IMG/VR virus record: IMGVR_UViG_2871105481_000001
Location: 8,249 to 72,248 of that record
Strand: one strand, 5' to 3'
Origin: a virus
Lineage: Duplodnaviria > Caudoviricetes
DNA length: 64,000 nucleotides
Part shown: piece after piece, positions 15,939 through 64,000 of the stretch
How the letters are laid out: every line of letters starts with the position of its first letter
How positions within the stretch are numbered: position 1 is the first letter of the stretch
Made by a program: the position numbers and the translations under genes
The notes under the pieces: generated by a model
The model's input: the letters and a program-made list of their open reading frames with translations, nothing else
The model's database searches: none
Told to the model about the DNA's origin: nothing

Positions 15939-18900
15939 CTACTTTTTATTCTGCTTTATAACATTTTCGTACTCAGAAAATACTGCTTTTGATAATATCT
16001 TTTGAGATTGTAGTTGTTCAAAAAATCTTCTTTTTTCTGTTGATGACATACCTTCTGAGTATGTATAAATAAGCAATGCTTTATTCTTAACATTATTATT
16101 TGTTCCATATTTCACATCAAATACCATAGATGAAATACCATCTTTTTTGACAAGTGATTTAATTCGGTTAACTAAATCTTTTTGTATAACTGGATCTTTA
16201 GAATATCCTTCTATATCTGCAATTAAAGATTTTTCGTTTTTCAACAATTCATTTACTGAACCATATTTACTTAATATCTGTTTAGCTTTATTACGAGTTT
16301 CACCATATTCATCAGTATTTTTATCTAACTGTTCTTGAACCAATGCTTTTTTATTTAGTTGTCTATTAAAATCTGAAGTTTCACTTAAGATCCTTTTTAT
16401 AAATGAATCATAAATTACTCCTGCCCTTTTCTTAGCATCTACATCTGTTACTATAGCATCTGCTCCACCATACATTATACCAACAAATGGATTGGTCTGG
16501 GGGGATGTTATGATACTTTCAACTAATGCTTTCAATCTTACTGGTGAATCATCTAATGCTTTTCCTAATTCCTTATAGAACTCTTCTACATTTGCTTTAT
16601 CAGCACCTTCATATTTCCGGCTAACCTTACCAATATCAAAAGATAATGGTTGTTCTCTAAATGTATCATACCCAGTGTAATATTGTGTTAAACCTTTACT
16701 TGCAGGATTACTACCAATTAATTTAAATGCAGCATCAAAGTAACTTTGTGATTTACTAGGATCTTCTAATGCTGATGCTAAATGTGTTGGATCAATATTA
16801 TCACCTAATGCTTTTGTAAAATTCTTCCAGGTATTTTTTATACTTCCTCTTTTAGTCATCCCAACTGAACTACGGATATGATCTTCATAAGCCCCTTCAA
16901 ATAGAATTGATATTGGTGTTAATTGTTGGGCTTTTGCAATTCTTAAAACTTTCCATTGTTTTTCTTCTTTATCCCATCCTACAGGAATATTCCAATAATT
17001 CATTTTTTGAGAAGGAGAAATTCCATCAAGGAAATCTGCATATGATTTATTTACAGGTTCATCTTCTTTTTCTGGAGGTCTAATTAATCCCATAATGAAA
17101 TTAATCATTAAATGCATTCCTAATACAGGTAATCCAGCTGCTTGGATTATTCTCACTGAGGTATCAAGTGGATTTCTTTTTATAGCCTCCACCATTACTC
17201 TTGTACCTTGCGTTGCAGCGTTTAGATATGGAATAACAGCTTCAGCAGATTTTGTAAATGTTCCACCCTGGTTGAAATCTAATAACCCTCTTGATGAGGC
17301 AACAGCTTCATAATACATATTATTTTTGTCTTCATTAGATAATTCTTCAACAGATTTGTAAGATGTATTATTTAGCTTATTATATACTTTCAGTTGGTTT
17401 TGAAGTGATCTATCAAATACTGCAACTCTAAACATTGTTTCACTATAATTTGATAAAGACTTTAATCTTGCGAAATTGAATAAAGTACTTAATGTTTTTT
17501 TAGATTTTGGATCAATTCTACTATCAAAATAATTCCCAATAGTTTTATTAAGAGATGTTAAATCTTTAATTTCACCTTGTTGATTAAGCCACTCCATTCC
17601 TCCACCATACTCTAAATATTTAGTTAATAAAGTTGTTTTATTACTATTACGATGTTTATAAATCTCACCAATAGCTTTTATTGAATCTTTAGTTAACTGT
17701 GCTCCTGCCCTCAATAAAAAACTATTATATTCAGGCGAGAATAATAATGCATGAACAAAGTCTCGTGGTGTATTTGTAAATACAAAACCTGGGTTGTTTC
17801 CAGTTGCAAATGCTTTAACAAGTCTACTTCCAGACCATGTAGAAATAGTCTTAGCTAAATCTGAATTAACTAACTTGTCCATAGTGTCATGCCACATTTT
17901 ATGAAATTCTTCTTTCATGAATACCTGTTGACGAACACCATTCTCATAATAGTAAGCAATTTTATAACCTTCTGGTGTTGTAGATTCATACTTAGGCTTA
18001 CCACTTTCAGTAAATCCAATTATTCTATTTTCTTTAATATTACTTTGTAATTGTTTGAAATATTTATAGAACTTCTTATCACTCTCTGCAATATTATCCG
18101 AATTAATAGATTCATACTTTGCTTTAGCGTCTGGGTAATACTTAGTAAAGAATGTTCTATTTATTTCATTCATCCCAATAGCCTTATATCTACTGGCTAA
18201 TGTTGATTGAATTAACCATTTAGAATCCATTAACATATCAGATGCATCTCCTTCTGATAAACCTATAATTTGCTCTTTAGATAAATTTCCATTTTCATTT
18301 CTAAACATGGTTCTATCTGATGACATTAATTCTCCATCAGCATCTAATATATAACGTAGGAATTTTCTTGGTTGGTAGTCTACATCTTTTAATTCTTTAT
18401 ATACTTCATTACTTATAAGCCCACTTTCTTGCATATCAGATAAGATGGTTTTAAAAGCATCAAAATAAGCATCAGCCCTTTTATTAAGTTTTGTAAACGC
18501 ATCTTCTCCAATTTCAGATTTATATGCATCCAATGCTTTCTGTGCTGTACTTGCATCTTGGTATCCTGGATGATCTATAACTGGTAATCCCTTTTCTTCA
18601 CGATTTTTATCAATTGCAAGAAATCTTTTTGCAGCTATTATTTTATCTAGTAATTCTAATTCTGATCTGTTAAGTCCATCATATACACTTTTTTGAACTT
18701 TATCAAATTTTTCTTTGGCAATTGTAGAAGATCCTGCATAAGCAATCATTCTATTTGAAACTGCTTTTGCACCAATGTTTTCTAAAATTCTCTTTGGTAT
18801 AAATTGTCTATCAACACCAGATACTATTCCACGTTCTACTTTATTTTTCAACCAGGCTCTAAACTTTTGATTAAATGACATAACGTTACCATTTTCATCT

Positions 18901-21900
18901 TTAAACCTTTTAGTTAAAACTTCTTTCGAAGATTTATAAGAATCATCTAGTTTTTTTCTTGCTTCTTCAGGCGAAATAGTTTTATTAACTAATCTATTAT
19001 AAGCTGACTCTACCATTCTTTGTTCATCAATAGAATTAAAAGAATCTTTAATTTCCTGTAATGATTTACCAGAATTAAATTGTTGTTCAACAGTTTGGCT
19101 TACTTCATTATATTTATCAGTCGTTCTCTCTATTTGAGTTTTATTTCGTTCTTCTGCTTTCGTATTAATTTTATTAAATAATTCTGTAAACTTGTTGAAG
19201 TTTGAAATTGAATTACGGGTGCTTAGAATTCCAGTTGCAGCTTTTAGTAAACGCGAAACTTCAGTTGGAGTTATCTTCCCACTAATCATATTTTGATTAA
19301 GGAAAATTACAGTGTTATCATATGCTTCTTTTGCTTGCCTTTTTCTTTCTGCGACCTTTTCTCTATATGATTTATTAGATTTCCTTAATTCTTCAATTTT
19401 ATTTTTATAATTCTCATGTATCTTCTCAATTTTATTGAAGGCAATTTCTTTTTCTTTTTTAGAAGTTTGTTCTTTTACTTTTTCAACAGCAGTTTTTTTC
19501 TTATTAATCTGATCTTCACGATGAAGAATAACTTGCTCTTGCATAAGTTTTGTTATTCCTTCACTGTCAATTAAAGCTTTCTGTTTATCAGATAAACTTT
19601 TATAAAATGCAGACTCTTTAAATTTAGCTAACCCAGCCTCAATACCATTTGTTTCAGTTTCATTTAATACTTCTTGAATAGTTGATACTGGCATAAGTTT
19701 TTTAATCATAAATCTTACACCAGAATATGCTTGAAGATTAATTGAACCATCAGCTTCCTTTAATCTATTTATATGTTCATCAATAGACTTCTGTAATTGA
19801 AACTCTTGTTTTAATTCTGTGTTGTTTTTAAAACCAAACAATCCTTTTATATATTCTACAATTCTTGTTAATAAAGGTTTTGGTTCAGGATTATTCAAAT
19901 AGTCTAAATAATTATCAACTTCTGATTTAAAGTTGTCATTGGCAATATATTCAGCTATGAATTCATAATTATTAGAATAGCCATAAGCATTTGTTTTATT
20001 CGGATTCTTTAATGCTTCTTCGTAAGCTGAACGTGCTTCATTTCTAAATGTAAGTTCTTGTTCATTTAATTGTGAAGAGTCTATATTATCAGCTAGGTAG
20101 TATGAAGTGAAAACATGTGCTAATTCATGTTGTACTAATTTTGTTTTAAGAAAATTATTTAAATCTGTAGCTCCTTCTTTGATATAAATTGAATTTCCTT
20201 TCGCCTCACCTATTGCATCATTAAAAACTTGGGTAACAATGCCATCTAAAAGCTCTTGTCTTAAATATGATTCTTGATAAGTACCATTATCTATTAGAAC
20301 TTGATAATCCTTCAATAAGCCATCAACATATGAGTTTATTTCTTTTTCTGATTTATTGAATAAATTTTCATTTATAACATAAATTTTAGTATCAAATTTT
20401 CTTGCAAGATTCGCTATATCGTCTGAAATATTATATCCTTTTGCAATTAATTCATCTATACTAGTAGTATTATCTCCAAAGAAATTTGATAATTCAACAT
20501 CATCTTTTATCTTTAGCTTATTTGTATTATCTGTCCTAATAGAGAAATTAACATTATTTATACTAGGATTTTTAAATCCATTAATTAGGTCTATAGTTTC
20601 TTTTAAGAATTTAACATTGTTTGAATTTATATCTTCAGTTAATAATTTGATAGAATCTGTATTTTTATCATATCTAATTTTAACAATAGAATCACCAATA
20701 TTTATATTATCTCTTAGTACTTCAATTATTCCCTGCTTATTTATATATTTAATACCATCATAATTATTTAGTAATCTCGCTCTTAATCTATTAATATTAT
20801 TTAATGCAAATCCTGTTTTTATTGTATTTATTTTATCAGATGAGTTCTCTTCATTTAATGAAAGTATTAAAGCAATATTTTTATTATTAGAATTCTTTAA
20901 AGCAGTTAAAAATTCTAACCTATCCTTAGTTTTTTTACCGTCTTCATAATTATCAAAAACGGCAACTGGATCTTGAATATTATCTACTATATTTCTTAAA
21001 TTCTGAATATCTGAAATTTCATGTTTACTTTGTTTAATGATTTTATTAAATAAATATGATAAATTAACATTCATTTCATTATCAGAAACCCCTATTGATT
21101 TAAGTAAAGTACTTGGTCGCCCTAAATCAATTGTATAATTCTCATCATTAAATCTGCTTTCTTTTACAATTCTAATTGTATTTTCATTAGTTAGTTCTCC
21201 ATTTTTTAACTTCTCCTTATTTTTAAGGAATGTACTGTATTCTTTAATATGTCTTTTAGTAGATTCTGCAATATTATTAAGCTCATTACTCCCTAAACTA
21301 TAATTAATATTAGATGATTTTGAATTTTCAGAACTTAATATTTTTTCATTCATTAAGTCACCTAAAACTTTATTTGTAAAGTTATTTAAAGATATATTTG
21401 GATTTAAATTACCAATACCTAATACATCACCTATCTTATTGAAAAAGGCTCTAAACCACTGTACAAATTCAGCCATTTTCCCCCTAGCCTGACGTTCTTG
21501 AAATTGCCATTCTCCATAGTTACCTATATGAGTATTTAATGCTTCATTCCATAATTCGTTATCAGATAAATTATTATAATTACCTTCATATTTTAATCTA
21601 TTGAATATTTCTTTTCCGGTTTTAGTCTGTTTTAATAGTTCAACTCCATTTTTAAATCTACTTGGCATTAACTGTTCCCATAAATGGGAAAACTCATGTA
21701 TTGGAGTATTAGCATTTAGATATTCAGGGTTAATATAAATAGTACCATCTGGTAACTTTGCTCCATAAATAGTACCATTATTTTGCATGAATTTTATATC
21801 ATTATCACTTACAACTACATTGTTTGAACTTAGTTCATCTAAATTATTAATACCATCCAAAGTATTTTTATTTTTAATAAACTCATTCCAATCAGTAGTT

Positions 21901-24900
21901 ATTTTTAAATTCTTAAATGTTTTTGAAAATGGTTTTTTAAGCTTTTCAATTAATGAATCAAATTCTTCTTGAGATATAGGAGTAAAGTTTTCTGATGATT
22001 TTTGTAATTGAATTGGATTACCTGATTCATCTTTTAAGTTCTGAACTAATGGAGATCCTGTGAAATATGTTTTACCATCATCACCTTTAATAGTTAATCT
22101 ACCTTTATTTTCTGATTCAACAACTCCACTTCTAGTATCACCAAATTGATTGAATGAAACTCTTTTGCCTATATAATTGGAGGATGATGTACTTTCTGTA
22201 ACCGGAACTTCAGTTTTAATTTTAGATTGTTTAGATAAACTAAACCCTCTTTGCTTCTGATTTATGAACTTGTCAACTTCAGTTTGATCAGAAAAATCAA
22301 ATTCACTGTCTCCATTTCTATCTTCTATTAAATTTCCATTATTATCAGTTACAGTTACTCTATAGCCATTATCTCCATCTGGCAATCTAATTTCTTTAGT
22401 TGTAGCTATTACATTTTCTGATAATCTAGTTTTATTTGGATTTAGCTCATTTGATACGGATGTTTCTTGTGAACGCAAATCATTCGGATTTACTTCAACT
22501 TGGTTAGTACTTCCTGGTAATTCATTGGCTTGTACTGTTTCACTATTTGAAGTTTGTTGTTCCTGATTGATATCAGGTGCATATTGAACTCTTTCATTAG
22601 AGTTAGTACTACTTCTCGTTTGGTCATCAGATATTTTATTTATTCTAGCTAATAAATCATCAAAATTTACTTCTTCGGAAATGTTGGAAGTTTGGGTATT
22701 TTCATTTTGCCTAATGGCTTCAGTGGGTGAATTTGTAGATTCGACAGATGCGTTTTCATTGATAGAAGACTGTTGTTCCGGTTGTTGTGTATTTTGTCGA
22801 ATATCGTTTTGTGGGTTACCTTGTTTTTCATTTTTATTTTTAGTTGTTTGAGCGTTTTTTTCATCTATTTCATTTGCAACTTTTAATCCTTCAGAAAATT
22901 TATTTATTGAAAGGTTTGGAAATCTATTTTGAAGATCATTTAATAATTCAGGATATTCTTCAACCAATCCATCATTAACTAAAATACCTTGTACTTGATT
23001 AATATCTTTTATTTCTGGATCTGTAGATATAAGCATAAAACTTCCATTTGAATATGCTGCCCCTGCACCAATTCCAGATGAAGCAGCACCAGACCCTTCT
23101 AGAGGAGCTGTATATAAAAATCCATTACCTCTATTCTTATCAATACCATTATCAAAAAGATTTAAAAGTTCCTTAAGGCTTCCTCCTAATCCTGATTTAC
23201 CCATTCCATGAGCAAAAAATCGGTTCTGAAGTCCTGCATTTAAAATATCTTTCATAGTCTTTGGAAACATTCCATATCCTAATGTTAGAATACTTCCATC
23301 TCTATTTTGAAAATATATTTTTCTCCAAAGAGCTTCTAATGCTGATTCACTTATTTTTGTTTTATTATTTTCATCGGGGTTAACTGTATTGTTTTCTGTT
23401 TCTTGTCCTTGTGTTCTTTCTGATGTTTGTTCTGTTGATGTGGTATTCTCATTAGTAGGTTTTTGATTTAATATTTGGTCAACTTGTGATTCTAGTGATG
23501 AAATTTCAGATTCTATTCTAGGTTTGAATGCAGCATCTGCTTGATTTAAATCATTACGTTTCGTCTCTAATTGTTGAAGTACTTTTATTGCACTATCTAA
23601 ATAATCAGTAGAATAATTCTGTGAATCTGGAATCTTATTGATATATTTTTGCCTTGTTAATACTTCATTTTTAACATCATCTAATGTATTTGAAAAACTA
23701 TCAAAACTAGAATCATTTGACATTACTTTTAACATATTATTAGCCCCATCAAATCGAGACAATTCTGTAAGTAATTGGCTTCTATTATAGTTAGATAAGT
23801 TTATTTCATTATTACCTAATTTAATATTTCTAGAACCTGAACCTCCCATTAAAGATGCTATTGCGGAAGGAACAATTGTTCCAACAACTACATCTTTATA
23901 TCCTTCACTATCTGTTAATTTAAAATCTGATCCATAAATAATATTAGTAACATAATTAGTCATGTCACCAACAACTTGCTGAATTAATTCTTCTTTAGTT
24001 TCTCCAACTACATTATCTCCTATTTTTGAAAACAATGATTTTGCATTAGCTAAAATTCGCTCTCCATTACTAGTGCTTAATGAAGAAAGTAGTTGTTTGT
24101 ATTCATTATTAAACCCGGAAAGAAATTTACTGTCTGGATTAATTCTTTGAATTAATGATTGAATAAATGAATTTACAGTAGCATATACTGTTTTGCCTGC
24201 TGTGGATGAAATTCCTGAGTCTTCAGCACTTTTATAACTATCATTATACATTTGAACAAACCAGCCTGATACTGATTTGTTTTCAATTGAATTAGCACCT
24301 TGAGCATATCTTGCAAAATTTCTAGCTTGTTTTGCAATTTCACTTTCTGCACCAAAAGCTTGAGTTGTTTTTGAAGCAAGGCTTATTGCGTTATTAGTTA
24401 TTGTATTATTTATTAATCCACCAACTTCATTTGTTATTAAGATATCTCCAGCCATCTTACCTGTTAAGAAAGCCATACCTGAAGGATTATATTCTGAATC
24501 TTTTCCAGTTTCTTTTAAACCGGATATATTACTAACAGGTTTATAAATTCCATTTTCAATCTGGAATAATTTACCATTTCTTTCTTCAAAAACTCTACCT
24601 GAATTATCACTATATTTTGTAACATTTGTTCTTAATGGTGATATCTCAATATTACCAAGCTTTAAAGGTTCACTTAATTGATCAGCTGAATCTTTTACAT
24701 CTTGACTAAAGGGTGTAGTAAGTATTCTTAAAATACCTGAACTAGCATCTATTGCTGATTGCCCTAATCCTAAAACTACTTGGCCTAAAATATTCTGTGT
24801 TCTTGCAATACCATCACCATTTAATACTCTTGCTTGGAAATCTTGTGCTTCGGAGTCTTCTTTATTTACTCTTGTAAATATTTTATTTACATCAGATGTA

Positions 24901-26483
24901 ATACTATCATTTTGTTGTACATTTTTTATATTATTCTGAATACTATTCTGAACAGTATTTATTTGATTTACATACTGATTTACTAAATTAAAATCACCAG
25001 TTTCTGCTGCTGACTGGACATTATATTTTAGATTATATATATTATTTTGTTTAGCTTCAATATCTAATAATTCTTTCTGATTAGTCCAGTTAGAAAATGC
25101 ATTCCAAATATTCTTTCTATTTCTCTGTCCATTTGTATTATTTCTAATACTCTGATCTGTTCTAGTGTACAACTGGCCTTCTTCACTATCTAAAAATTCC
25201 CCAAATAGTTTTTTAAGATCATAGTTCTTTTCAACTTCTAAATAGAATTTATTCTCCGCAACATCATCTGGCATGATTTCATTATCTGAACCCAATCTAT
25301 TACTAAAGTCATCAAAGGCGGTTTGTTTTTGATTATCCATCATCGAAGACAATACACTTTGAGCTTTATCTAAATAAAATTCATCTGGCTTATTATAACG
25401 TCTACTTACCATATCATATACTTGTTGGTAAGTTGCATTTGGATAAGATCCTAATTCTTGTTGTGTTTCAAGCGTAATTTGAAGTTCTTTTCTTCCTTCT
25501 GGTGTTTGAAGATAATTTGATCTATCTTCTTCTGTTACTAGATATCCGTATTTATCAAAAAGTGAATTTGTGTATTTTTCAAGATCAGTTAATTCCGGTT
25601 TATCAGGTGATAACTTTTGTTTAGCAGCTTCATAGTTATTTCCTTCAACATATTTTTCAGATTCTTTTGTGAAATATTCTGCACCATTCTTAGTTATTTC
25701 AAAAGCAGGCAAACCATTTTCTAAAGTAGCTCTTGTACCATCTTTGAGATATGAAGGCTTTATGTATCCTTTCGATTCTAGATCTTTTGCATATGATTCT
25801 GGATCATTAATATTAGCTCCTGTAAAATCCTGATAAGAATAATCTAATAGTTCTCCAGGTTTATATTGTCTTGGAGATAAATAATTTTTTGGTAATTGAG
25901 TAAAATCTACTTTAGATTCATATGGTAAATAAATATTAGGAACAGTTACACCACTATTAAAAGTAGTTGTATTATTATTTGGATTATCATTTGGAAAACT
26001 AATCGTACCTACTTTACTTTTAGCATTACCATTTTCATCCAAAACTAGATTATCCATATTACCTTTATAGGATAATGGATTCTGAGTATTTATAGGTAAA
26101 TTAGTTGTAAACGGAGTGCCATTATTTCCAGACGTTAAAGCTGATTCTGAATTTGAATTTACCAAGTTGGAAACTCCATTCTGTTGATCTAATTGATTCT
26201 GATTTAGGTCTAATTGTGAATCTATTGGAACACTTAATGTTTCTTGTTGTGTATTTTGCCCTATTGAAATAGGATTTATATTTTCTCTGTTGTTGGATGT
26301 TGACAAGCCTTGTGAGCTTAATAAGCCTGTATTTGTATCGTCTTTTTTTTTTAATGAAGTTGTATCTTGAATTAAAGCTGAGAAATCATTAGGCTCAAGA
26401 TAGGACTGCATGTTTAAAAAGTCTTCTAATGATAAGTTACCACCATTACTTTGGTATTGTAGATAAAGTTCTTCTGGATTCAT
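15939..26483 (-). CDS. Giant (3514 aa) polyvalent/DNA-ejection protein: two zincin-like HExxH modules, MuF-C-like segment, C-terminal LPD38-like region
   Basis: NTPIHEFSH (21684-21698), HELAH...EFIAE (20115-20129), QDPVAVF segment, DFNQGGTFTK..IPYLNAATQG near the C-terminus; last of three ejection-type genes. Confidence 0.65.
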   Translation of the reverse strand: MNPEELYLQYQSNGGNLSLEDFLNMQSYLEPNDFSALIQDTTSLKKKDDTNTGLLSSQGLSTSNNRENINPISIGQNTQQETLSVPIDSQLDLNQNQLDQQNGVSNLVNSNSESALTSGNNGTPFTTNLPINTQNPLSYKGNMDNLVLDENGNAKSKVGTISFPNDNPNNNTTTFNSGVTVPNIYLPYESKVDFTQLPKNYLSPRQYKPGELLDYSYQDFTGANINDPESYAKDLESKGYIKPSYLKDGTRATLENGLPAFEITKNGAEYFTKESEKYVEGNNYEAAKQKLSPDKPELTDLEKYTNSLFDKYGYLVTEEDRSNYLQTPEGRKELQITLETQQELGSYPNATYQQVYDMVSRRYNKPDEFYLDKAQSVLSSMMDNQKQTAFDDFSNRLGSDNEIMPDDVAENKFYLEVEKNYDLKKLFGEFLDSEEGQLYTRTDQSIRNNTNGQRNRKNIWNAFSNWTNQKELLDIEAKQNNIYNLKYNVQSAAETGDFNLVNQYVNQINTVQNSIQNNIKNVQQNDSITSDVNKIFTRVNKEDSEAQDFQARVLNGDGIARTQNILGQVVLGLGQSAIDASSGILRILTTPFSQDVKDSADQLSEPLKLGNIEISPLRTNVTKYSDNSGRVFEERNGKLFQIENGIYKPVSNISGLKETGKDSEYNPSGMAFLTGKMAGDILITNEVGGLINNTITNNAISLASKTTQAFGAESEIAKQARNFARYAQGANSIENKSVSGWFVQMYNDSYKSAEDSGISSTAGKTVYATVNSFIQSLIQRINPDSKFLSGFNNEYKQLLSSLSTSNGERILANAKSLFSKIGDNVVGETKEELIQQVVGDMTNYVTNIIYGSDFKLTDSEGYKDVVVGTIVPSAIASLMGGSGSRNIKLGNNEINLSNYNRSQLLTELSRFDGANNMLKVMSNDSSFDSFSNTLDDVKNEVLTRQKYINKIPDSQNYSTDYLDSAIKVLQQLETKRNDLNQADAAFKPRIESEISSLESQVDQILNQKPTNENTTSTEQTSERTQGQETENNTVNPDENNKTKISESALEALWRKIYFQNRDGSILTLGYGMFPKTMKDILNAGLQNRFFAHGMGKSGLGGSLKELLNLFDNGIDKNRGNGFLYTAPLEGSGAASSGIGAGAAYSNGSFMLISTDPEIKDINQVQGILVNDGLVEEYPELLNDLQNRFPNLSINKFSEGLKVANEIDEKNAQTTKNKNEKQGNPQNDIRQNTQQPEQQSSINENASVESTNSPTEAIRQNENTQTSNISEEVNFDDLLARINKISDDQTRSSTNSNERVQYAPDINQEQQTSNSETVQANELPGSTNQVEVNPNDLRSQETSVSNELNPNKTRLSENVIATTKEIRLPDGDNGYRVTVTDNNGNLIEDRNGDSEFDFSDQTEVDKFINQKQRGFSLSKQSKIKTEVPVTESTSSSNYIGKRVSFNQFGDTRSGVVESENKGRLTIKGDDGKTYFTGSPLVQNLKDESGNPIQLQKSSENFTPISQEEFDSLIEKLKKPFSKTFKNLKITTDWNEFIKNKNTLDGINNLDELSSNNVVVSDNDIKFMQNNGTIYGAKLPDGTIYINPEYLNANTPIHEFSHLWEQLMPSRFKNGVELLKQTKTGKEIFNRLKYEGNYNNLSDNELWNEALNTHIGNYGEWQFQERQARGKMAEFVQWFRAFFNKIGDVLGIGNLNPNISLNNFTNKVLGDLMNEKILSSENSKSSNINYSLGSNELNNIAESTKRHIKEYSTFLKNKEKLKNGELTNENTIRIVKESRFNDENYTIDLGRPSTLLKSIGVSDNEMNVNLSYLFNKIIKQSKHEISDIQNLRNIVDNIQDPVAVFDNYEDGKKTKDRLEFLTALKNSNNKNIALILSLNEENSSDKINTIKTGFALNNINRLRARLLNNYDGIKYINKQGIIEVLRDNINIGDSIVKIRYDKNTDSIKLLTEDINSNNVKFLKETIDLINGFKNPSINNVNFSIRTDNTNKLKIKDDVELSNFFGDNTTSIDELIAKGYNISDDIANLARKFDTKIYVINENLFNKSEKEINSYVDGLLKDYQVLIDNGTYQESYLRQELLDGIVTQVFNDAIGEAKGNSIYIKEGATDLNNFLKTKLVQHELAHVFTSYYLADNIDSSQLNEQELTFRNEARSAYEEALKNPNKTNAYGYSNNYEFIAEYIANDNFKSEVDNYLDYLNNPEPKPLLTRIVEYIKGLFGFKNNTELKQEFQLQKSIDEHINRLKEADGSINLQAYSGVRFMIKKLMPVSTIQEVLNETETNGIEAGLAKFKESAFYKSLSDKQKALIDSEGITKLMQEQVILHREDQINKKKTAVEKVKEQTSKKEKEIAFNKIEKIHENYKNKIEELRKSNKSYREKVAERKRQAKEAYDNTVIFLNQNMISGKITPTEVSRLLKAATGILSTRNSISNFNKFTELFNKINTKAEERNKTQIERTTDKYNEVSQTVEQQFNSGKSLQEIKDSFNSIDEQRMVESAYNRLVNKTISPEEARKKLDDSYKSSKEVLTKRFKDENGNVMSFNQKFRAWLKNKVERGIVSGVDRQFIPKRILENIGAKAVSNRMIAYAGSSTIAKEKFDKVQKSVYDGLNRSELELLDKIIAAKRFLAIDKNREEKGLPVIDHPGYQDASTAQKALDAYKSEIGEDAFTKLNKRADAYFDAFKTILSDMQESGLISNEVYKELKDVDYQPRKFLRYILDADGELMSSDRTMFRNENGNLSKEQIIGLSEGDASDMLMDSKWLIQSTLASRYKAIGMNEINRTFFTKYYPDAKAKYESINSDNIAESDKKFYKYFKQLQSNIKENRIIGFTESGKPKYESTTPEGYKIAYYYENGVRQQVFMKEEFHKMWHDTMDKLVNSDLAKTISTWSGSRLVKAFATGNNPGFVFTNTPRDFVHALLFSPEYNSFLLRAGAQLTKDSIKAIGEIYKHRNSNKTTLLTKYLEYGGGMEWLNQQGEIKDLTSLNKTIGNYFDSRIDPKSKKTLSTLFNFARLKSLSNYSETMFRVAVFDRSLQNQLKVYNKLNNTSYKSVEELSNEDKNNMYYEAVASSRGLLDFNQGGTFTKSAEAVIPYLNAATQGTRVMVEAIKRNPLDTSVRIIQAAGLPVLGMHLMINFIMGLIRPPEKEDEPVNKSYADFLDGISPSQKMNYWNIPVGWDKEEKQWKVLRIAKAQQLTPISILFEGAYEDHIRSSVGMTKRGSIKNTWKNFTKALGDNIDPTHLASALEDPSKSQSYFDAAFKLIGSNPASKGLTQYYTGYDTFREQPLSFDIGKVSRKYEGADKANVEEFYKELGKALDDSPVRLKALVESIITSPQTNPFVGIMYGGADAIVTDVDAKKRAGVIYDSFIKRILSETSDFNRQLNKKALVQEQLDKNTDEYGETRNKAKQILSKYGSVNELLKNEKSLIADIEGYSKDPVIQKDLVNRIKSLVKKDGISSMVFDVKYGTNNNVKNKALLIYTYSEGMSSTEKRRFFEQLQSQKILSKAVFSEYENVIKQNKK

Positions 26484-41257: not shown

Positions 41258-41713
41258 ATGAAACAACTAAAGATTGAAATTCCTGAAGGATTTAAAGTAG
41301 ATGAATTTAATCCAGAATCAGGTATTATTAAATTCAAACCTATACCACAGAATATTAAAGATATAATTAAAACACTAGATGATGTTTATAACTATCATGA
41401 TATAGATAAAGATGAATTTAACAGAAGGTTCAAATCATGTACTGAAGATGAAATTGCCTATAAACATCTAAAGTTAATAACTTCTGCTTTAAACGAAGGT
41501 TGGGAACCAGATTGGGGGAATGGACAATGGGATAAGTGGTTCAACTGGTTCAACATGCCATCAAAAAATGGCCGGTTCTCGTTCTGCGACTCCTTTAATC
41601 GGTACTCGTTTTCGCATTGCTCTGCCCGCCTTTGCTTTAAATCCAAAGACCTTGCTCAGTACGCTGCAAAGCAATTCTTAGAGGTGTATGAGAAATATAT
41701 GGTTATTAAGTAA
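41258..41713 (+). CDS. DGR target protein 1 (distal)
   Basis: Carries VR1; paralog of 55335-55820 and 55832-56203 (ALNEGWxPDW...GRFSF...RLC). Confidence 0.9.
   Translation: MKQLKIEIPEGFKVDEFNPESGIIKFKPIPQNIKDIIKTLDDVYNYHDIDKDEFNRRFKSCTEDEIAYKHLKLITSALNEGWEPDWGNGQWDKWFNWFNMPSKNGRFSFCDSFNRYSFSHCSARLCFKSKDLAQYAAKQFLEVYEKYMVIK
41569..41634 (+). repeat. DGR variable repeat VR1
   Basis: Ungapped to TR 56243-56308; 16 mismatches in 66 nt, all opposite TR adenines. Confidence 0.92.
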
Positions 41714-54290: not shown

Positions 54291-55328
54291 ATGAAAACAA
54301 CCATTTATGGAAGTCTTCAAAACAACTATAACAAAGATATGAATTATTTAGAATTAAAACAAGACACTACCCTTTCTCATAATTCGGAAATGCAATATTT
54401 CAATTCATTTTTCCAGGATCTTTTAAAAGGGTTACAGAGTGGTAAATACATTACGGACAAGGGTACTAAATATTCTCTTACCACAATAAGACATTATAAA
54501 AATGCTTACGACTGGTTTGTTTTTTGGGAAGCTCACATTGGTATTCAATTACAAATGAATGAGGTAATATACAATACTGTTGAAATGTTTAAAACGTTTC
54601 TTAGCCATTATCACCTAACATTAAATAGTGTATCAGTTATTATCTCTAAAATTAAATCTGTCCTAAACTTTGCTTTTAAGTCGGGTAAGCATTTTTGGAA
54701 TGGAACAGGAATAAAGATTGTAAAGGAAAAAAATCCAAAAACGTATTTAACAATTGAAGAATTAAAGCAAATGCGTTCATGTAAATCTTTAACTGCTGCT
54801 GAAGAAATGGTTTTAGACAATTTTACAATTCAGTTTTATATTGGTCAAAGGTATGAAACAACACAAAGATTCTTAAAGCAACCTTTTGCGTTTACAAGAC
54901 AACATGGAGAATTTTCATATATAGAAATTGAAGCATATAAAACTGGAACCGTTTCATATATCCCATTAGGAGAGATAGTTAAGGGTATTATACAGAAATA
55001 TAATGGTTTAGTGCCTGTTTATTCTAGGACTTACATTAATCGGATAATTAAAGTGGTTGCGTTTAAAGCAGGATTAATTCAATTAATTGCAACTCGTGAA
55101 ACGCGTAATCAAAAAGTTGTTAGAGAGTTTATTCCAAAATATTCTCTTATATCTACACACACTGCAAGAAGATCCTTAGTATCAAATCTTAAACAATTAA
55201 ATTTTTCAAATCAATCAATAATGGGAATTACATCTCATGGTACAGAAGTACAGTTAAATGACTATAACAGGTCACAAGTAGAAAAAATAAAATCAATATT
55301 AGGTCACGAATTTTTCCTGAAAATATAA
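54291..55328 (+). CDS. Tyrosine recombinase with SAM-like N-terminal domain (second integrase)
   Basis: Catalytic set R (IGQRY), K (YKTG), HxxR (HTARR), H (TSHG), Y (LNDY). Confidence 0.85.
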   Translation: MKTTIYGSLQNNYNKDMNYLELKQDTTLSHNSEMQYFNSFFQDLLKGLQSGKYITDKGTKYSLTTIRHYKNAYDWFVFWEAHIGIQLQMNEVIYNTVEMFKTFLSHYHLTLNSVSVIISKIKSVLNFAFKSGKHFWNGTGIKIVKEKNPKTYLTIEELKQMRSCKSLTAAEEMVLDNFTIQFYIGQRYETTQRFLKQPFAFTRQHGEFSYIEIEAYKTGTVSYIPLGEIVKGIIQKYNGLVPVYSRTYINRIIKVVAFKAGLIQLIATRETRNQKVVREFIPKYSLISTHTARRSLVSNLKQLNFSNQSIMGITSHGTEVQLNDYNRSQVEKIKSILGHEFFLKI

Positions 55329-55334
55329 AATCTC

Positions 55335-55820
55335 ATGAAGAATTTAGAAATCACTCAAGAAGCAGCAGTAAAAGCATACTCTGAAGCTTCAAAAAATGGA
55401 AAACTATTACTAGAAAATCTTTTTGGAAAAAATGTATTTCTTGTAGATATTAAAGAAAGAATTAAATCTATTGAAGATGCAATTAATGAACTTGGAGAAA
55501 ATGATGATGAAGTAATTGTATTAAGAGCCTTAGAAGTAGCTGGTATAAGTAATCATATTTTATATACACAATGGTTAGTAGTTATTACCAAAGCTCTAAA
55601 CGAAGGTTGGGAACCAGATTGGGGGAATGGACAATGGGATAAGTGGTTCAACTGGTTCAATATGCCATCAAAAAATGGCCGGTTCTCGTTCTACTGCTCC
55701 AATTATCAGTACTCGGTTTCGGTTTGCGCTTCCCGCCTTTGCTTTAAATCAAAAGACCTTGCTCAGTATGCTGCTAAGCAATTCATAAACACTTATGAAA
55801 AATCTTATACTAATCAATAA
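55335..55820 (+). CDS. DGR target protein 2
   Basis: Contains VR2; C-terminal 188 nt near-identical to target 1 outside the VR. Confidence 0.9.
   Translation: MKNLEITQEAAVKAYSEASKNGKLLLENLFGKNVFLVDIKERIKSIEDAINELGENDDEVIVLRALEVAGISNHILYTQWLVVITKALNEGWEPDWGNGQWDKWFNWFNMPSKNGRFSFYCSNYQYSVSVCASRLCFKSKDLAQYAAKQFINTYEKSYTNQ
55676..55741 (+). repeat. DGR variable repeat VR2
   Basis: Ungapped to TR 56243-56308; 15 mismatches in 66 nt, all at TR adenines. Confidence 0.92.
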
Positions 55821-55831
55821 AACTAATTTAA

Positions 55832-56203
55832 ATGAATATAACAGATAAAGTAAAAAGTTTTGAGGATGCTTGTCAATTATTAGGAATAAAACCTGATGTT
55901 CCAAAAGTATCATTATTGCCAGAAAAACATCAAAAAGCAATAGTAGCACATTATAAATTGATAATTATTACTGAAGCATTAAATGAAGGATGGACACCTG
56001 ATTGGAGTAATTGGAATGAAAGAAAATATTATCCTTGGTTTGAAATGAGTGATTCTTCTGGCCGGTTCTCGTTCGACGGCTCCGATCATCGGTGCTCGAC
56101 TTCGACTTGCGCTTCCCGCCTTTGTCTAAAAACATGGGAATTAGCAAATTACATAGGAGAATCGTTCATTGATTTATATAAAGATTATTTCATAATAGAT
56201 TAA
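55832..56203 (+). CDS. DGR target protein 3 (minimal core domain)
   Basis: Contains VR3; VKSFEDAC..LG...ALNEGWTPDW..RLC. Confidence 0.9.
   Translation: MNITDKVKSFEDACQLLGIKPDVPKVSLLPEKHQKAIVAHYKLIIITEALNEGWTPDWSNWNERKYYPWFEMSDSSGRFSFDGSDHRCSTSTCASRLCLKTWELANYIGESFIDLYKDYFIID
56052..56125 (+). repeat. DGR variable repeat VR3
   Basis: Ungapped to TR 56236-56309; 16 mismatches in 74 nt, all at TR adenines. Confidence 0.93.
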
Positions 56204-56235: not shown

Positions 56236-56309
56236 ATTCTTCTAGCCAGTTCTCGTTCAACAACTCCAATAATCAGAACTCGAATTCGAATTGCACTACC
56301 CACCTATGT
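56236..56309 (+). ncRNA. DGR template repeat (TR)
   Basis: Non-coding, between target 3 and RT; 7 AAC/AAT triplets in frame with the VR codons. Confidence 0.93.
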
Positions 56310-56413
56310 TTTTAATATAAAAACTGTAAACCTTACCTCTTGGTAAAAAATAACTCACTTTCATAAAGGCGTTGGTAAGTTTTACTGAAAACGACTTTTC
56401 TAAAGCAAAGATT

Positions 56414-57376
56414 ATGAAAAGAATAAACAATTTATTTGAAAAAATAATTTGCATTGACAATCTAAAACAAGCAGATATAAATGCTCAAAAAGGAAAAAGC
56501 AAACAATATGGAGTAAAACTACACAATAAAAATAATGAGTTAAATATTATTGAGTTATATAACACACTTAAATATAAACAATACAAAACCTCACAATATG
56601 ACGTATTCAAAATAACCGAACCTAAAGAAAGGGAAATATACAGACTTCCATATTTTCCTGATAGAATAATGCATCATGCTATTATGAATATATTAGAACC
56701 AATATTTGTTTCAACTTTTACTAGTGATACCTATAGTTGTATAAAGAAAAGAGGTATACATAAAGCTTCATATAATTTAAGAAAAGCTCTTAAACATAAA
56801 ACTGAAACTTTATTTTGTTTAAAGCTTGATATTAAGAAGTTCTACCCAAATATTAACCATGATATTTTAAAAACCTTACTAACAAAAAAGTTTAAAGATA
56901 AAGACCTATTATGGCTTCTATATGAGATAATTGATAGTGCTCCAGGTTTACCAATTGGTAATTATTTAAGCCAATATCTAGCGAACTTTTACCTAACATA
57001 TTTTGATCATTGGGTAAAAGAAGAATTAAAAGTTAAGTACTACTTCAGATATGCAGATGATATAGTAATACTTAATAGTTCAAAAGAAAACCTTCACATA
57101 ATATTAAATCAAATTAAATACTATTTAAACACTAAACTAAAATTACAAGTAAAAGAAGATTGGCAAATATTTCCGGTAGAAAAAAGAGGTATTGACTTCG
57201 TTGGATATGTTCATTATCATAGTCATGTTAAACTTAGGAAATCAATTAAGAAGAAATTTGCAAAAATATTAAAAAGAAGTCCTAATAAAGCTTCAATTGC
57301 ATCTTACTCTGGATGGACAAAACACTGTAACTCTCAAAATCTTATGAAAAAACTTTTAAATAATGTTCCACTTTAG
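56414..57376 (+). CDS. DGR reverse transcriptase
   Basis: PKEREI..LPYFPDRIMHHA, LKLDIKKFYPNI, GLPIGNYLSQ, YFRYADD, GIDFVGY; about 320 aa with no maturase/endonuclease tail. ATG 56414. Confidence 0.95.
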   Translation: MKRINNLFEKIICIDNLKQADINAQKGKSKQYGVKLHNKNNELNIIELYNTLKYKQYKTSQYDVFKITEPKEREIYRLPYFPDRIMHHAIMNILEPIFVSTFTSDTYSCIKKRGIHKASYNLRKALKHKTETLFCLKLDIKKFYPNINHDILKTLLTKKFKDKDLLWLLYEIIDSAPGLPIGNYLSQYLANFYLTYFDHWVKEELKVKYYFRYADDIVILNSSKENLHIILNQIKYYLNTKLKLQVKEDWQIFPVEKRGIDFVGYVHYHSHVKLRKSIKKKFAKILKRSPNKASIASYSGWTKHCNSQNLMKKLLNNVPL

Positions 57377-57659
57377 TGATTTTAACATCAAACCTAAAGA
57401 AAACACATTTACAGGGAAAAAAATAGATATAGATGATATTTTAAATATTGAAATTATCATTAACAAATATCAAATAAAAGATTCAATAAAAAAATCAAAT
57501 TCAAAATATCTCACATTACAAATTGAGATAAATAAAACTCATAGAATTGTCTTCACTGGATCTAAAAACCTAATTGATTTAATAAGTCAAGTACCAGAAG
57601 ACAAATTTCCATTTTCTACGACAATAAAAAAGAATGATCGTAGACTAGAATTCACTTAA
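57363..57659 (+). CDS. Small unknown protein overlapping the RT stop (candidate DGR accessory factor)
   Basis: 98 aa, 14-nt overlap with RT; FTGKKIDIDDILN...LQI...VFTGS..LI...FPFSTTI, beta-rich. Confidence 0.7.
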   Translation: MFHFSDFNIKPKENTFTGKKIDIDDILNIEIIINKYQIKDSIKKSNSKYLTLQIEINKTHRIVFTGSKNLIDLISQVPEDKFPFSTTIKKNDRRLEFT

Positions 57660-57676
57660 CAAATAAAAATATTATT

Positions 57677-58189
57677 ATGAAAAACATTTTAGTAGTAACA
57701 CTATTAGTTGTTACAACTGCATTACATGCACAATTTACAAAAGGAACCAAATTTATTGAAGTTGGTTCTTCATCAAATGACTTAAGAGTTTCTCCAACTG
57801 GATTCATGTTTTATATTTCTGATGAAAAAGAAAGGTCTATTGTTATTGGACTGTCTGGAGGATATTTTATATCTGATGGTTTAGCTTTAAAATTAGGTAC
57901 TGGATTTTCTTATTCAAAACTTAGAGATTTAGATGCTCTAAAATCATATGGAGTTTCAGGTGGAATTGAATATTATATTTCAAATAAATTTCCTGTTGAA
58001 ATTAGATACTCAGCTTCATTTAGAGATCAATATAAAGATTCTCATTTCTTAACATTAAAAGTTGGTTATGCAAAAGTATTTGATAAGAAGTTTGTTTTAA
58101 AACCTTTTGCGTTTATCGAAAAATCTTTAAACAATTATTATGCAAATGGTGCTGGTATAGGTGTTTCATTTTCCTACAATTTCAAGTAA
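57677..58189 (+). CDS. Small outer-membrane beta-barrel protein
   Basis: Signal peptide (..ALHA|QF), alternating amphipathic strands (GLSGGYFISDGLALKLG), terminal GVSFSYNF. Confidence 0.75.
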   Translation: MKNILVVTLLVVTTALHAQFTKGTKFIEVGSSSNDLRVSPTGFMFYISDEKERSIVIGLSGGYFISDGLALKLGTGFSYSKLRDLDALKSYGVSGGIEYYISNKFPVEIRYSASFRDQYKDSHFLTLKVGYAKVFDKKFVLKPFAFIEKSLNNYYANGAGIGVSFSYNFK

Positions 58190-62770: not shown

Positions 62771-64000
62771 TTAAATTTTTCTACTGTGATTATTCACCTG
62801 GTTTTTATAAACATTCCTTTTTTCTGTAATATAAATATTAGTCATCATTGTTGAGCTATGGCCAAATAAATGTCTTAATGCATCTTCAGACATTCCATCT
62901 TCTATTTTATGATTAGCACTTAGTTTTTTACCACTATAAAAAGTTCTATTTATACCTAATTCATCTTTAATTAAAACTTTCCATAGATTTGATAATGTTT
63001 TTCTTTTTATAGAATATTTATTAGGTTTAAAAGTCCTATCTTTTGGTAGTTTTGCTCCATATGGCACTGGAGTACCAAATAAGTAATATTCATTATCATA
63101 CCGTTGAATTCCAATATTAATTAATAAATCGTACAGATAACCGTTCATTGGTACATATCTAATTTTTGTACGTGATTTGTTGTTTTCGGGTACAATAATA
63201 ATAATTCGTTGTTCTAAATCAATGTGCTTTAATTGTAAATCAAGAATTTCACCAGGTCTAATTCCTGTATGATATTGAAAACAGAAGGCATTCCATAAAT
63301 TTGGATGATTTGTGATTAATTGATTTTTAATACGTTTAAATTCTTTTTCAGATGGAGGATCATGAAGTGATGATTGTTCTTGTTTTAATGTCGGAGCTTT
63401 CATCATAGGATTAATTTTAATCATTTCCATGTCGACACACTCTTGTAAAATGGTTTTTATATAACCTAAATTATTATTATAAGTTCTGTTACTCCATTTT
63501 CTTTTTTCTTTGACAATTTCTAAACATTGTCTAAAATGCATTTTAGATGAATCTTTTAATTTTAATTCATCCCATTTTTTTGCTTTAATTTCTTCAACTA
63601 AAAAATCAACTGCACCTTTATAGTCTGATTGGCTTTTAGGAGAAAGTTTTTTTGATCTTTCAGATAATGCTTTATACAAAGCTTCAATTAATGAAATATT
63701 AGATTCTTCAAAAACCGGAATAGTATTTAGTTTTTTTGACTTTTCAATCTCTTCAAAAATTTCATTTGGAATCAAGCCATTAGTTAAATTATTAATCAAC
63801 TCTTTCTTTAATTTATTGGCTTCTTTTAATCTTAATTCAAATGTATCATGGTCATTTATACCATGTGAATATCTTCGTATATATCTTTTACCTTCAATAG
63901 TAATTCGAAAATATACATACCATCTTTTAGGATTTTTTACTTCTTCTACAGGATAGGATACAATCTTAGGAGTTGTACAGTGAAGTTCTCTTTTTTTCAT
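62771..64000 (-). CDS. int: Phage integrase (tyrosine recombinase)
   Basis: N-terminal arm-binding-like WYVYF, SAM-like middle, HTGIRPGE, GHSS..MT.IY; start codon at the last base of the window. Confidence 0.9.
   Translation of the reverse strand: MKKRELHCTTPKIVSYPVEEVKNPKRWYVYFRITIEGKRYIRRYSHGINDHDTFELRLKEANKLKKELINNLTNGLIPNEIFEEIEKSKKLNTIPVFEESNISLIEALYKALSERSKKLSPKSQSDYKGAVDFLVEEIKAKKWDELKLKDSSKMHFRQCLEIVKEKRKWSNRTYNNNLGYIKTILQECVDMEMIKINPMMKAPTLKQEQSSLHDPPSEKEFKRIKNQLITNHPNLWNAFCFQYHTGIRPGEILDLQLKHIDLEQRIIIIVPENNKSRTKIRYVPMNGYLYDLLINIGIQRYDNEYYLFGTPVPYGAKLPKDRTFKPNKYSIKRKTLSNLWKVLIKDELGINRTFYSGKKLSANHKIEDGMSEDALRHLFGHSSTMMTNIYITEKRNVYKNQVNNHSRKI

What the first reader, a model, noticed from the sequence alone, without database searches (positions are those of the whole stretch)
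55335..56203. DGR targets are small non-tail, early-operon proteins with an internal VR - an uncharacterised hypervariable protein family
Seen: the targets are 123-161 aa with no signal peptide, share a core (IKSxEDA..ALNEGWxPDW..W(F/Y)..GRFSF-[VR]-RLC.K...A.Y....F..Y) and sit among early/auxiliary genes. The VR is followed by about 25 constant residues. I found no TR match in the tail fibre/spike genes. Established: classic phage DGR targets are tail-fibre receptor-binding proteins with a C-terminal CLec or Ig-like VR. Inference: these are intracellular adaptive binders, e.g. inhibitors of variable host defence proteins or host-takeover factors. Target 3 is the bare domain; targets 1 and 2 add different N-terminal extensions.
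Basis: partly seen in the sequence, partly recalled or inferred. Interest (0 to 1): 0.82.

Follow-up and report, generated by a model that had tools for sequence, protein, structure and literature searches.

The report
Small hypervariable phage proteins, DGR-diversified
A prophage of Elizabethkingia uses a mutagenic reverse transcriptase to diversify three small soluble proteins rather than a tail fibre; the protein family is real and widespread in Bacteroidota phages, it is already listed in public catalogues, and its function is still unknown.

Summary
One template repeat (56236-56309), next to a DGR-type reverse transcriptase, matches variable repeats in three paralogous ORFs of 151, 161 and 123 aa. 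Every mismatch lies at a template adenine. No other target exists in the 72-kb provirus record.

The proteins have no Pfam family, signal peptide or membrane segment. They belong to phrog_11581, which is cluster PC_00007 ('Phage_other') of Roux et al. 2021, so the family is catalogued but undescribed.

In 77 of 80 related viral loci, 2-3 tandem copies sit directly before TR and RT. A conserved 98-aa ORF follows in 68 of the 80. The cassette lies in early, non-structural regions, often of Mu-like phages.

A confident AlphaFold model (pLDDT 90) matched no solved fold, C-type lectin included. However, the variable repeat itself is of the lectin type. In cultured Bacteroides phage BI-TP1 (a LoVEphage relative), one template diversifies both an Mtd-like tail protein and a member of this family.

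The idea that such distal targets serve the phage-host arms race was already published for that phage group, and it remains untested. I judge this a new member of a known kind, of moderate interest. The scan's other notes on this window agree with it.

The parts
41258..41713 (+). Remote DGR target, 151 aa, with an 'LKIEIPxGF'-type N-terminal extension plus the family core domain
   Evidence: ORF; phrog_11581 E 1.7e-16; carries a VR
41569..41634 (+). Variable repeat of the remote target
   Evidence: 16 mismatches to the TR, all at TR adenines
55335..55820 (+). DGR target, 161 aa, with a helical N-terminal extension plus the core domain
   Evidence: ORF; phrog_11581 E 2e-25; this extension type recurs in many loci
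55676..55741 (+). Variable repeat of the 161-aa target
   Evidence: 15 A-only mismatches to the TR
55832..56203 (+). DGR target, 123 aa, bare core domain
   Evidence: ORF; phrog_11581 E 1.8e-27; AF2 model pLDDT 90.1, pTM 0.84
56052..56125 (+). Variable repeat of the 123-aa target
   Evidence: 16 A-only mismatches to the TR
56236..56309 (+). Template repeat: non-coding, 7 in-frame AAY codons, 21 adenines in the diversified stretch
56372..57376 (+). DGR reverse transcriptase. The ORF is listed from TTG 56372; the in-frame ATG at 56414 is a likelier start. It carries IGNYLSQ and YADD motifs.
   Evidence: Pfam RVT_1 E 2.6e-20; phrog_1423 E 3.5e-118; nearest phage RTs are DGR RTs of crAss-like phages; motifs read from the translation
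57363..57659 (+). 98-aa ORF overlapping the RT stop. It is conserved with the cassette and is a candidate accessory factor. No Avd-like gene is present.
   Evidence: phrog_19665 E 1.2e-9; present right after the RT in 68 of 80 viral loci; no Pfam, NCBIfam or PADLOC match

Best explanation
The three ORFs are variable proteins of one diversity-generating retroelement.

Shown:
- The TR lies between the last target and the RT. The VRs differ from it only at TR adenines, the signature of adenine-mutagenic copying.
- About 10 codons per protein vary, 7 of them AAY codons. That allows roughly 7e11 protein variants per target, and no stop codon can arise.
- The proteins belong to a Bacteroidota-phage family (phrog_11581 = PC_00007). 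Its ~120-aa core has N-terminal helices, a Trp-rich segment (LNEGWxPDW...KYYPWF), the VR, then 'RLCFKS' and a C-terminal helical hairpin.
- The VR is of the same sequence type as the C-type-lectin VR of Mtd-like tail proteins. The scaffold around it has no detectable similarity to lectin domains.

Inferred:
- The cDNA is made by the adjacent RT, probably helped by the 98-aa downstream ORF, and it replaces the VRs.
- The proteins are soluble, non-virion, variable ligand binders made from the early/accessory operon.
- They act inside the infected or lysogenic cell in phage-host conflict, for example by capturing variable host defence or host factors.
- The two or three paralogs possibly act together.

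My confidence is about 0.95 that they are DGR-diversified binding modules of this family. It is about 0.5 that they are non-structural and act intracellularly. The confidence value given for this explanation is the second, lower figure.
For: DGR anatomy:
- A-only TR/VR mismatches at three sites and nowhere else in the record.
- RVT_1/phrog_1423 RT with the IGNYLSQ motif.
- AAY-rich TR read in frame with the VRs.

Family and activity in nature:
- 2,994 cluster representatives at E<=1e-3.
- 77 of 80 IMG/VR loci have 2-3 tandem family genes about 200 nt upstream of an RT.
- A-only TR/VR pairs are seen in nearly all of these loci.
- 67 near-identical metagenome variants differ almost only at about 9 VR codons.
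- Family members are listed as PC_00007 'Phage_other', DGR clade 1, in Roux et al. 2021.

Non-structural context:
- The only genes conserved with the targets are the RT and the 98-aa ORF.
- Recurrent neighbours are a CI-like repressor, a transposase, a MuB-like ATPase, DUF3164 and a YqaJ exonuclease. All except the repressor, which is divergently oriented, lie upstream on the same strand. Morphogenesis genes lie on the other strand.
- In BI-TP1 the family member sits among DNA methyltransferases, radical-SAM and PAPS-reductase genes.
- There is no signal peptide or membrane segment, and the family is mildly acidic with median pI 5.3.
- No tail PHROG matches.

Fold:
- AF2 pLDDT 90.1, pTM 0.84.
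- Only uncharacterised phage proteins match in BFVD.

VR type:
- One TR serves the Mtd_N-like tail protein gp12 and the family member gp84 in BI-TP1.
- The family profile aligns its VR to the end of the gp12 VR.

Pairing hint:
- Natural two-domain fusions exist.
Against: No experiment or expression data bear on localisation or timing. Gene position is only suggestive, and virion proteins also lack signal peptides. The VR is interchangeable with that of a receptor-binding tail protein, which would equally fit a surface-ligand binder. The 'Phage_other' label in Roux et al. rests on machine-learning predictors that may miss small virion proteins. No partner, effector domain or defence or anti-defence family was detected. 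The VR part of the model has lower confidence (pLDDT 63-79). The two-domain fusion model was poor (pTM 0.51), so cooperation between the paralogs is unsupported.
Confidence: 0.5

Rival explanations
1. The small proteins are virion-associated adhesins or adaptors. They dock on a tail fibre or baseplate, perhaps through the N-terminal extensions, and present the variable loop to the cell surface, so the DGR still serves host-range switching.
For: In BI-TP1 the same TR diversifies an Mtd-like tail protein and a family member, so both carry the same kind of binding surface. Most phage DGR targets are receptor-binding proteins (PMC8144416). Two recurrent N-terminal extension types could be docking modules. 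The tandem paralogs could be alternative tips.
Against: The family genes are never adjacent to tail genes in 80 viral loci. They are co-directional with early genes. They are classed 'Phage_other', not structural, in Roux et al.. They give no tail PHROG hit. The bare 123-aa form has no spare domain for attachment.
Confidence: 0.25
2. They are lysogen-expressed variable sensors or blockers that protect the host cell against superinfecting phages or other mobile elements. This would be a prophage-encoded defence rather than a counter-defence.
For: The carriers are temperate: this provirus has an integrase at 62771-64000, and many relatives are Mu-like transposable phages. Bacterial DGRs have been linked to putative antigen sensors (cited in PMC12629997). 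One homologue, P0148, carries a C-terminal helix-turn-helix-like tail.
Against: No effector or signalling domain is fused or conserved nearby. There are no PADLOC hits. The genes sit inside the lytic early operon, downstream of the transposase and MuB genes, not in a typical moron with its own signals.
Confidence: 0.15
3. The ORFs have little function of their own. They are carriers or remnants of a lectin-type VR cassette that persists because the DGR homes into it, or they are a reservoir of VR variants for recombination into a tail gene.
For: The VR with its flanks moves between genes. A roughly 190-nt near-identical block is shared by two otherwise unrelated 5' halves in this window. The VR is shared with a tail gene in BI-TP1.
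Against: The whole ~120-aa domain is conserved outside the VR across all orders of Bacteroidota, with nearly invariant residues. Reading frames are intact in nearly all loci. This record has no tail gene with a matching VR to receive variants. Positions that must be Gly or Arg are fixed in all three VRs despite TR adenines, which indicates selection on the protein.
Confidence: 0.05

Closest known systems
PC_00007 ('Phage_other') DGR target cluster of Roux et al. 2021 (PMC8144416), equal to PHROG phrog_11581
   Same: It is the same protein family. Catalogue sequences carry the same LNEGWxPDW, KYYPWF and GSRLCFKS motifs. They occur as adjacent primary/secondary targets of one RT, with the VR at 0.7-0.8 of the protein length, in DGR clade 1 and FCB-group phages.
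   Different: Nothing differs in kind. The paper gives no description, fold or function for this cluster. This window adds a third, remote copy.
Distal DGR target of Quimbyvirus/LoVEphage (ORF84; BI-TP1 gp84), Benler et al. 2021 (PMC8008677) and the Nature 2025 study on temperate gut phages (PMC12629997)
   Same: gp84 is a member of the family (hhalign probability 99.5%, E 2.4e-22). Its location is non-structural, among counter-defence-type genes.
   Different: There it is a single copy, far from the RT. It has a longer VR (about 38 residues) and shares its TR with an Mtd-like tail protein. Here 2+1 copies are the only targets, the VR is short (about 22 residues), and the genes abut the TR and RT.
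Mtd of Bordetella phage BPP-1 and other C-type-lectin DGR variable proteins (TvpA, crAss-like tail-collar fibre)
   Same: Adenine-directed diversification of AAY codons. The VR ends in a motif of the [IV]G[SF]R type. An RT sits beside a TR.
   Different: The proteins here are not tail fibres. They give no FGE-sulfatase, DUF1566 or lectin Pfam hit in 64 members. No lectin fold was found with the model. The VR is internal, followed by a helical hairpin. No Avd gene is present.

Membership tests
Diversity-generating retroelement (system) | TR/VR pair whose differences fall at TR adenines | tested here: met
   47 of 47 mismatches lie at adenines over three VRs. A pattern degenerate at the A positions matches with 0 mismatches.
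Diversity-generating retroelement (system) | Adjacent reverse transcriptase of the DGR clade (I/LGxxxSQ motif, YxDD) | tested here: met
   RVT_1 and phrog_1423 hits. IGNYLSQ and YADD are read in the translation. The closest phage relatives are DGR RTs of crAss-like phages.
Diversity-generating retroelement (system) | Accessory protein Avd (or an HRDC-type protein) | tested here: not met
   No Avd-like ORF or Pfam hit was found near the cassette. Instead, a conserved 98-aa ORF of unknown family follows the RT. Many phage DGRs are reported without Avd (PMC12386605).
Diversity-generating retroelement (system) | Target-site signals (GC-rich IMH, downstream hairpin) | tested here: inconclusive
   A GC-rich CCCGCCTTTG is shared by all three VR 3' ends, against CCCACCTATG in the TR. 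Folding the DNA downstream of the VRs showed no stem-loop common to all three.
phrog_11581 / PC_00007 small DGR variable proteins | Profile match over the core domain with conserved motifs | tested here: met
   E values of 2e-25, 1.8e-27 and 1.7e-16 to phrog_11581. The motifs are found in sequences labelled PC_00007.
phrog_11581 / PC_00007 small DGR variable proteins | Tandem copies directly upstream of TR-RT | tested here: met
   Seen in the window, in 77 of 80 viral loci and in 30 of 45 genome loci.
C-type-lectin-fold DGR variable proteins | Sequence-profile match to lectin-type families (FGE-sulfatase, DUF1566, Lectin_C) | tested here: not met
   None of 64 family members matches at E<=0.1. 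There is no PDB sequence relative.
C-type-lectin-fold DGR variable proteins | Three-dimensional C-type-lectin fold | tested here: inconclusive
C-type-lectin-fold DGR variable proteins | VR of the lectin type, interchangeable with that of a known lectin-fold target | tested here: met
   In BI-TP1, one TR serves the Mtd_N-like tail protein gp12 and the family member gp84. The family profile aligns to the end of the gp12 VR.
Phage tail fibre / receptor-binding protein | Location in the tail module, or similarity to tail families | tested here: not met
   No tail PHROG matches. Neighbours are early, recombination or transposition genes. The tail-fibre-like ORF at 7713-9872 carries no VR.

The most novel reading that the evidence does not exclude
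The core domain is a scaffold unrelated to the C-type-lectin fold that has captured a lectin-type VR. That would make it the first non-lectin display scaffold for DGR variation. The tandem or fused paralogs would pair to form a two-loop binding site, acting as phage-encoded intracellular 'antibodies' that neutralise variable host defence proteins.
Probability: 0.15. Interest if true: 0.85.

Novelty: new member of a known kind. Interest (0 to 1): 0.45.

Why it matters
DGRs are nature's targeted protein-diversification machines, and nearly all studied phage examples retune tail fibres. This family is a large, phylum-wide class of phage DGRs whose only targets are small soluble proteins encoded among early genes. 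That points to a use of hypervariation after entry, whether counter-defence, host takeover or exclusion, and no such use has been demonstrated. The family has a compact ~120-aa domain, a short VR of about 10 variable codons, a confident structural model and cultured carriers (BI-TP1/LoVEphage, Elizabethkingia prophages). This makes the question directly testable. It is also a candidate minimal scaffold for engineered DGR-based binder evolution.

Tried and rejected
- An AF2 model of a natural two-domain fusion (P0126) was poor: pLDDT 75, pTM 0.51, VR loops below 50. I draw nothing from it.
- The search for related loci with the 64-sequence alignment failed for lack of a conserved stretch. I used the single protein instead.
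- The 'longer' homologue search gave one hit. Pfam on the extended or fused forms gave nothing.
- ESM Atlas returned only unnamed viral clusters.
- PADLOC and NCBIfam gave no hits for the targets or the 98-aa ORF.
- The sigma-70 promoter and terminator scan was uninformative in this AT-rich DNA.
- Folding the DNA downstream of the three VRs showed no shared hairpin.
- The 93-aa ORF after the crAssphage LMMB RT has no similarity to the 98-aa ORF here.
- I considered a DNA-mimic anti-restriction role. The family is only mildly acidic (median pI 5.3), so this is not supported.

Full report
WHAT IS THERE

The window is bases 8249-72248 of a 72,248-nt IMG/VR provirus record. Close relatives of its proteins come from Elizabethkingia and other Weeksellaceae such as Chryseobacterium.

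Structural genes occupy the left part: terminase, portal, a 3,514-aa ORF, virion proteins and a tail-fibre-like ORF at 7713-9872. A long run of small + strand genes fills 38.5-62.7 kb, and an integrase lies at the right end.

Within that run lie two adjacent ORFs, 55335-55820 (161 aa) and 55832-56203 (123 aa). They are followed by a non-coding repeat, a reverse transcriptase (56372-57376; Pfam RVT_1, phrog_1423) and an overlapping 98-aa ORF. A third paralog (41258-41713, 151 aa) lies 14 kb upstream.

CHECK OF THE OBSERVATION

- Scanning the window with the repeat core found exactly four copies.
- The copy at 56236-56309 is the template. The other three (41569-41634, 55676-55741, 56052-56125) differ from it at 16, 15 and 16 positions, every one a template adenine.
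- A pattern with N at each adenine matched the same four sites with no mismatch, and nowhere else in the whole record. No tail gene is a target.
- Read in the frame of the targets, the template has seven AAY codons and 21 adenines. About 10 codons really vary between the three copies. The theoretical repertoire is about 7e11 proteins, and no stop codon can arise.
- Four template adenines are changed to the same base in all three VRs. Three of these changes give Gly77, Arg78 and Arg96, and the fourth, in codon 97, is synonymous. Arg96 is nearly invariant in the family. This looks like selection on the protein, or like part of the homing signal.
- The RT carries the IGNYLSQ and YADD motifs. Its nearest relatives in the phage collection are DGR RTs of crAss-like phages.

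The DGR and its three small targets are therefore real.

THE FAMILY

- None of the three proteins matches Pfam, NCBIfam or PADLOC, and neither do 64 homologues. All three match phrog_11581, a family of unknown function, at E 1e-16 to 1e-27.
- An exhaustive search found 2,994 cluster representatives at E<=1e-3.
- Genome hits cover Flavobacteriales, Chitinophagales, Cytophagales, Sphingobacteriales and Bacteroidales.
- In IMG/VR, 77 of 80 loci have two or three tandem family genes about 200 nt upstream of an RT. Nearly all of these have A-only TR/VR pairs. In 68 of 80 loci the 98-aa ORF follows directly after the RT.
- Nothing else is conserved with the cassette, so it behaves as a module that moves between phage backbones.
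- Sixty-seven near-identical metagenome variants differ almost only at about nine VR codons, interleaved with fixed serines. This is the expected footprint of ongoing diversification.
- The upstream paralog usually carries one of two N-terminal extensions, and both types occur in this window.
- Natural fusions of two domains exist.

ALREADY CATALOGUED

Motif searches in the supplementary target list of Roux et al. 2021 (PMC8144416) found family members. They are labelled PC_00007 with the class 'Phage_other', in DGR clade 1 and FCB-group phages, with the VR at 0.7-0.8 of the protein length. They typically appear as adjacent primary and secondary targets of one RT.

The main text does not discuss this cluster. 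It only suggests that uncharacterised VR domains are probably new lectin-fold variants.

CONTEXT

In other phages the recurrent neighbours are as follows.
- Upstream on the same strand: a Mu-type transposase, a MuB-like ATPase, DUF3164 and a YqaJ exonuclease.
- Upstream on the opposite strand: a CI-like repressor.
- Downstream on the opposite strand: a Mu-type portal and a neck protein.

The cassette thus closes the early operon of Mu-like Bacteroidota phages. In this window it lies in the accessory region, behind a tyrosine recombinase that only one relative shares.

The proteins have no hydrophobic segment and are mildly acidic.

FOLD

With a 64-sequence alignment, AlphaFold2 gave a confident model of the 123-aa protein (pLDDT 90.1, pTM 0.84). 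It has helices at residues 3-6, 10-17, 31-51, 102-111 and 113-120. An irregular Trp-rich stretch and the VR lie between them, and the VR has pLDDT 63-79.

- Foldseek found nothing in the PDB (best E 1.3).
- The second look at Foldseek's own hits gave nothing.
- BFVD returned only uncharacterised phage proteins, crAss-like ones among them.

So I found no C-type-lectin similarity, but a missing match does not prove a new fold.

THE VR IS OF THE LECTIN TYPE

The family also occurs in cultured Bacteroides phages of the LoVEphage group.
- BI-TP1 gp84 is a clear member (hhalign probability 99.5%, E 2.4e-22), with a longer VR.
- Its VR has two further copies in the genome.
- One copy is the TR beside the RT gp11. 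The other is the C-terminal VR of gp12, a tail protein annotated as Mtd_N-like.
- The TR differs from the gp12 VR at 18 adenines plus one other base, and from the gp84 VR at 12 adenines only.
- Similarity between gp84 and gp12 stops at the VR borders.
- The family profile from this window aligns its VR with the end of the gp12 VR and, weakly, with the VR of the crAssphage LMMB tail-collar fibre.

The short VR here therefore corresponds to the 3' part of a canonical lectin-type VR, placed in a scaffold with no detectable lectin similarity.

PRECEDENT FOR THE INTERPRETATION

gp84 lies among DNA methyltransferases, radical-SAM and PAPS-reductase genes and an HNH nuclease. Benler et al. 2021 described this distal, non-structural target in Quimbyvirus and inferred a role in phage-host conflict. 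The Nature 2025 study cites that paper for LoVEphage. It repeats the point for four prophage species with a second VR next to counter-defence genes.

No experiment supports it yet.

VERDICT

The small, non-tail, early-operon, family-wide character is right. 'Uncharacterised' is right, but the family is catalogued. The VR is of the lectin type.
- My preferred mechanism is a soluble variable binder acting inside the cell (about 0.5). A virion-associated adhesin (0.25), a lysogen-protective sensor (0.15) and a near-functionless VR carrier (0.05) remain open.

What is particular to this window:
- The DGR's only targets are this family.
- It has a remote third copy created by a roughly 190-nt shared block.
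- It has a non-Avd 98-aa companion ORF.

Noticed in passing
41485-41675 and 55592-55785: A block of about 190 nt, comprising the VR and its flanks, is nearly identical in the 151-aa and 161-aa targets, while their 5' halves are unrelated. Relative L001 has the upstream neighbour of the remote target directly before its cassette. L002 has the recombinase plus the 161-aa form. The window therefore looks like a mosaic of both arrangements.
   Followed up: partly
57363-57659: A 98-aa ORF overlaps the RT stop. It is conserved right after the RT in 68 of 80 viral loci (phrog_19665) and has no Pfam, NCBIfam or PADLOC match. There is no Avd gene nearby, so it is a candidate novel DGR accessory factor. 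crAssphage LMMB has a 93-aa ORF in the same position with no sequence similarity.
   Followed up: partly
54291-55328: A tyrosine recombinase (Phage_int_SAM_5, phrog_1) ends 6 nt before the 161-aa target. Only one of 80 related loci (L002) shares it, so it is not part of the conserved cassette.
   Followed up: partly
L090 (PQ571265.1 6544-6648, 6831-6935) and L086 (62600-62704): In cultured Bacteroides phage BI-TP1, one TR diversifies both the Mtd_N-like tail protein gp12 and the distal family member gp84, which lies about 56 kb away among DNA-modification genes.
   Followed up: yes
P0124, P0126, P0128, P0130; P0148: Some homologues are natural fusions of two family domains. One (P0148) has a C-terminal helix-turn-helix-like tail.
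   Followed up: partly
57677-58189: A 170-aa ORF with a signal-peptide-like N-terminus and a weak outer-membrane beta-barrel match (PF13505, E 0.012) lies directly after the cassette. It is shared only with the two closest relatives (L001, L002), so it is probably a moron.
   Followed up: no
15939-26483 (- strand): A single 3,514-aa ORF sits in the structural region of a provirus whose RT is closest to those of crAss-like phages. I did not examine its nature.
   Followed up: no
L102: One family and RT locus sits on a contig binned as Candidatus Methylacidiphilales, outside Bacteroidota. This may be a binning error or a rare cross-phylum occurrence.
   Followed up: no
L127, L129-L132: The Bacteroidales forms of the family (Muribaculaceae, Prevotella, Porphyromonadaceae) are single-copy, have a long VR and have no RT within 2.5 kb. 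They match the distal-target architecture of LoVEphage rather than the tandem cassette.
   Followed up: partly
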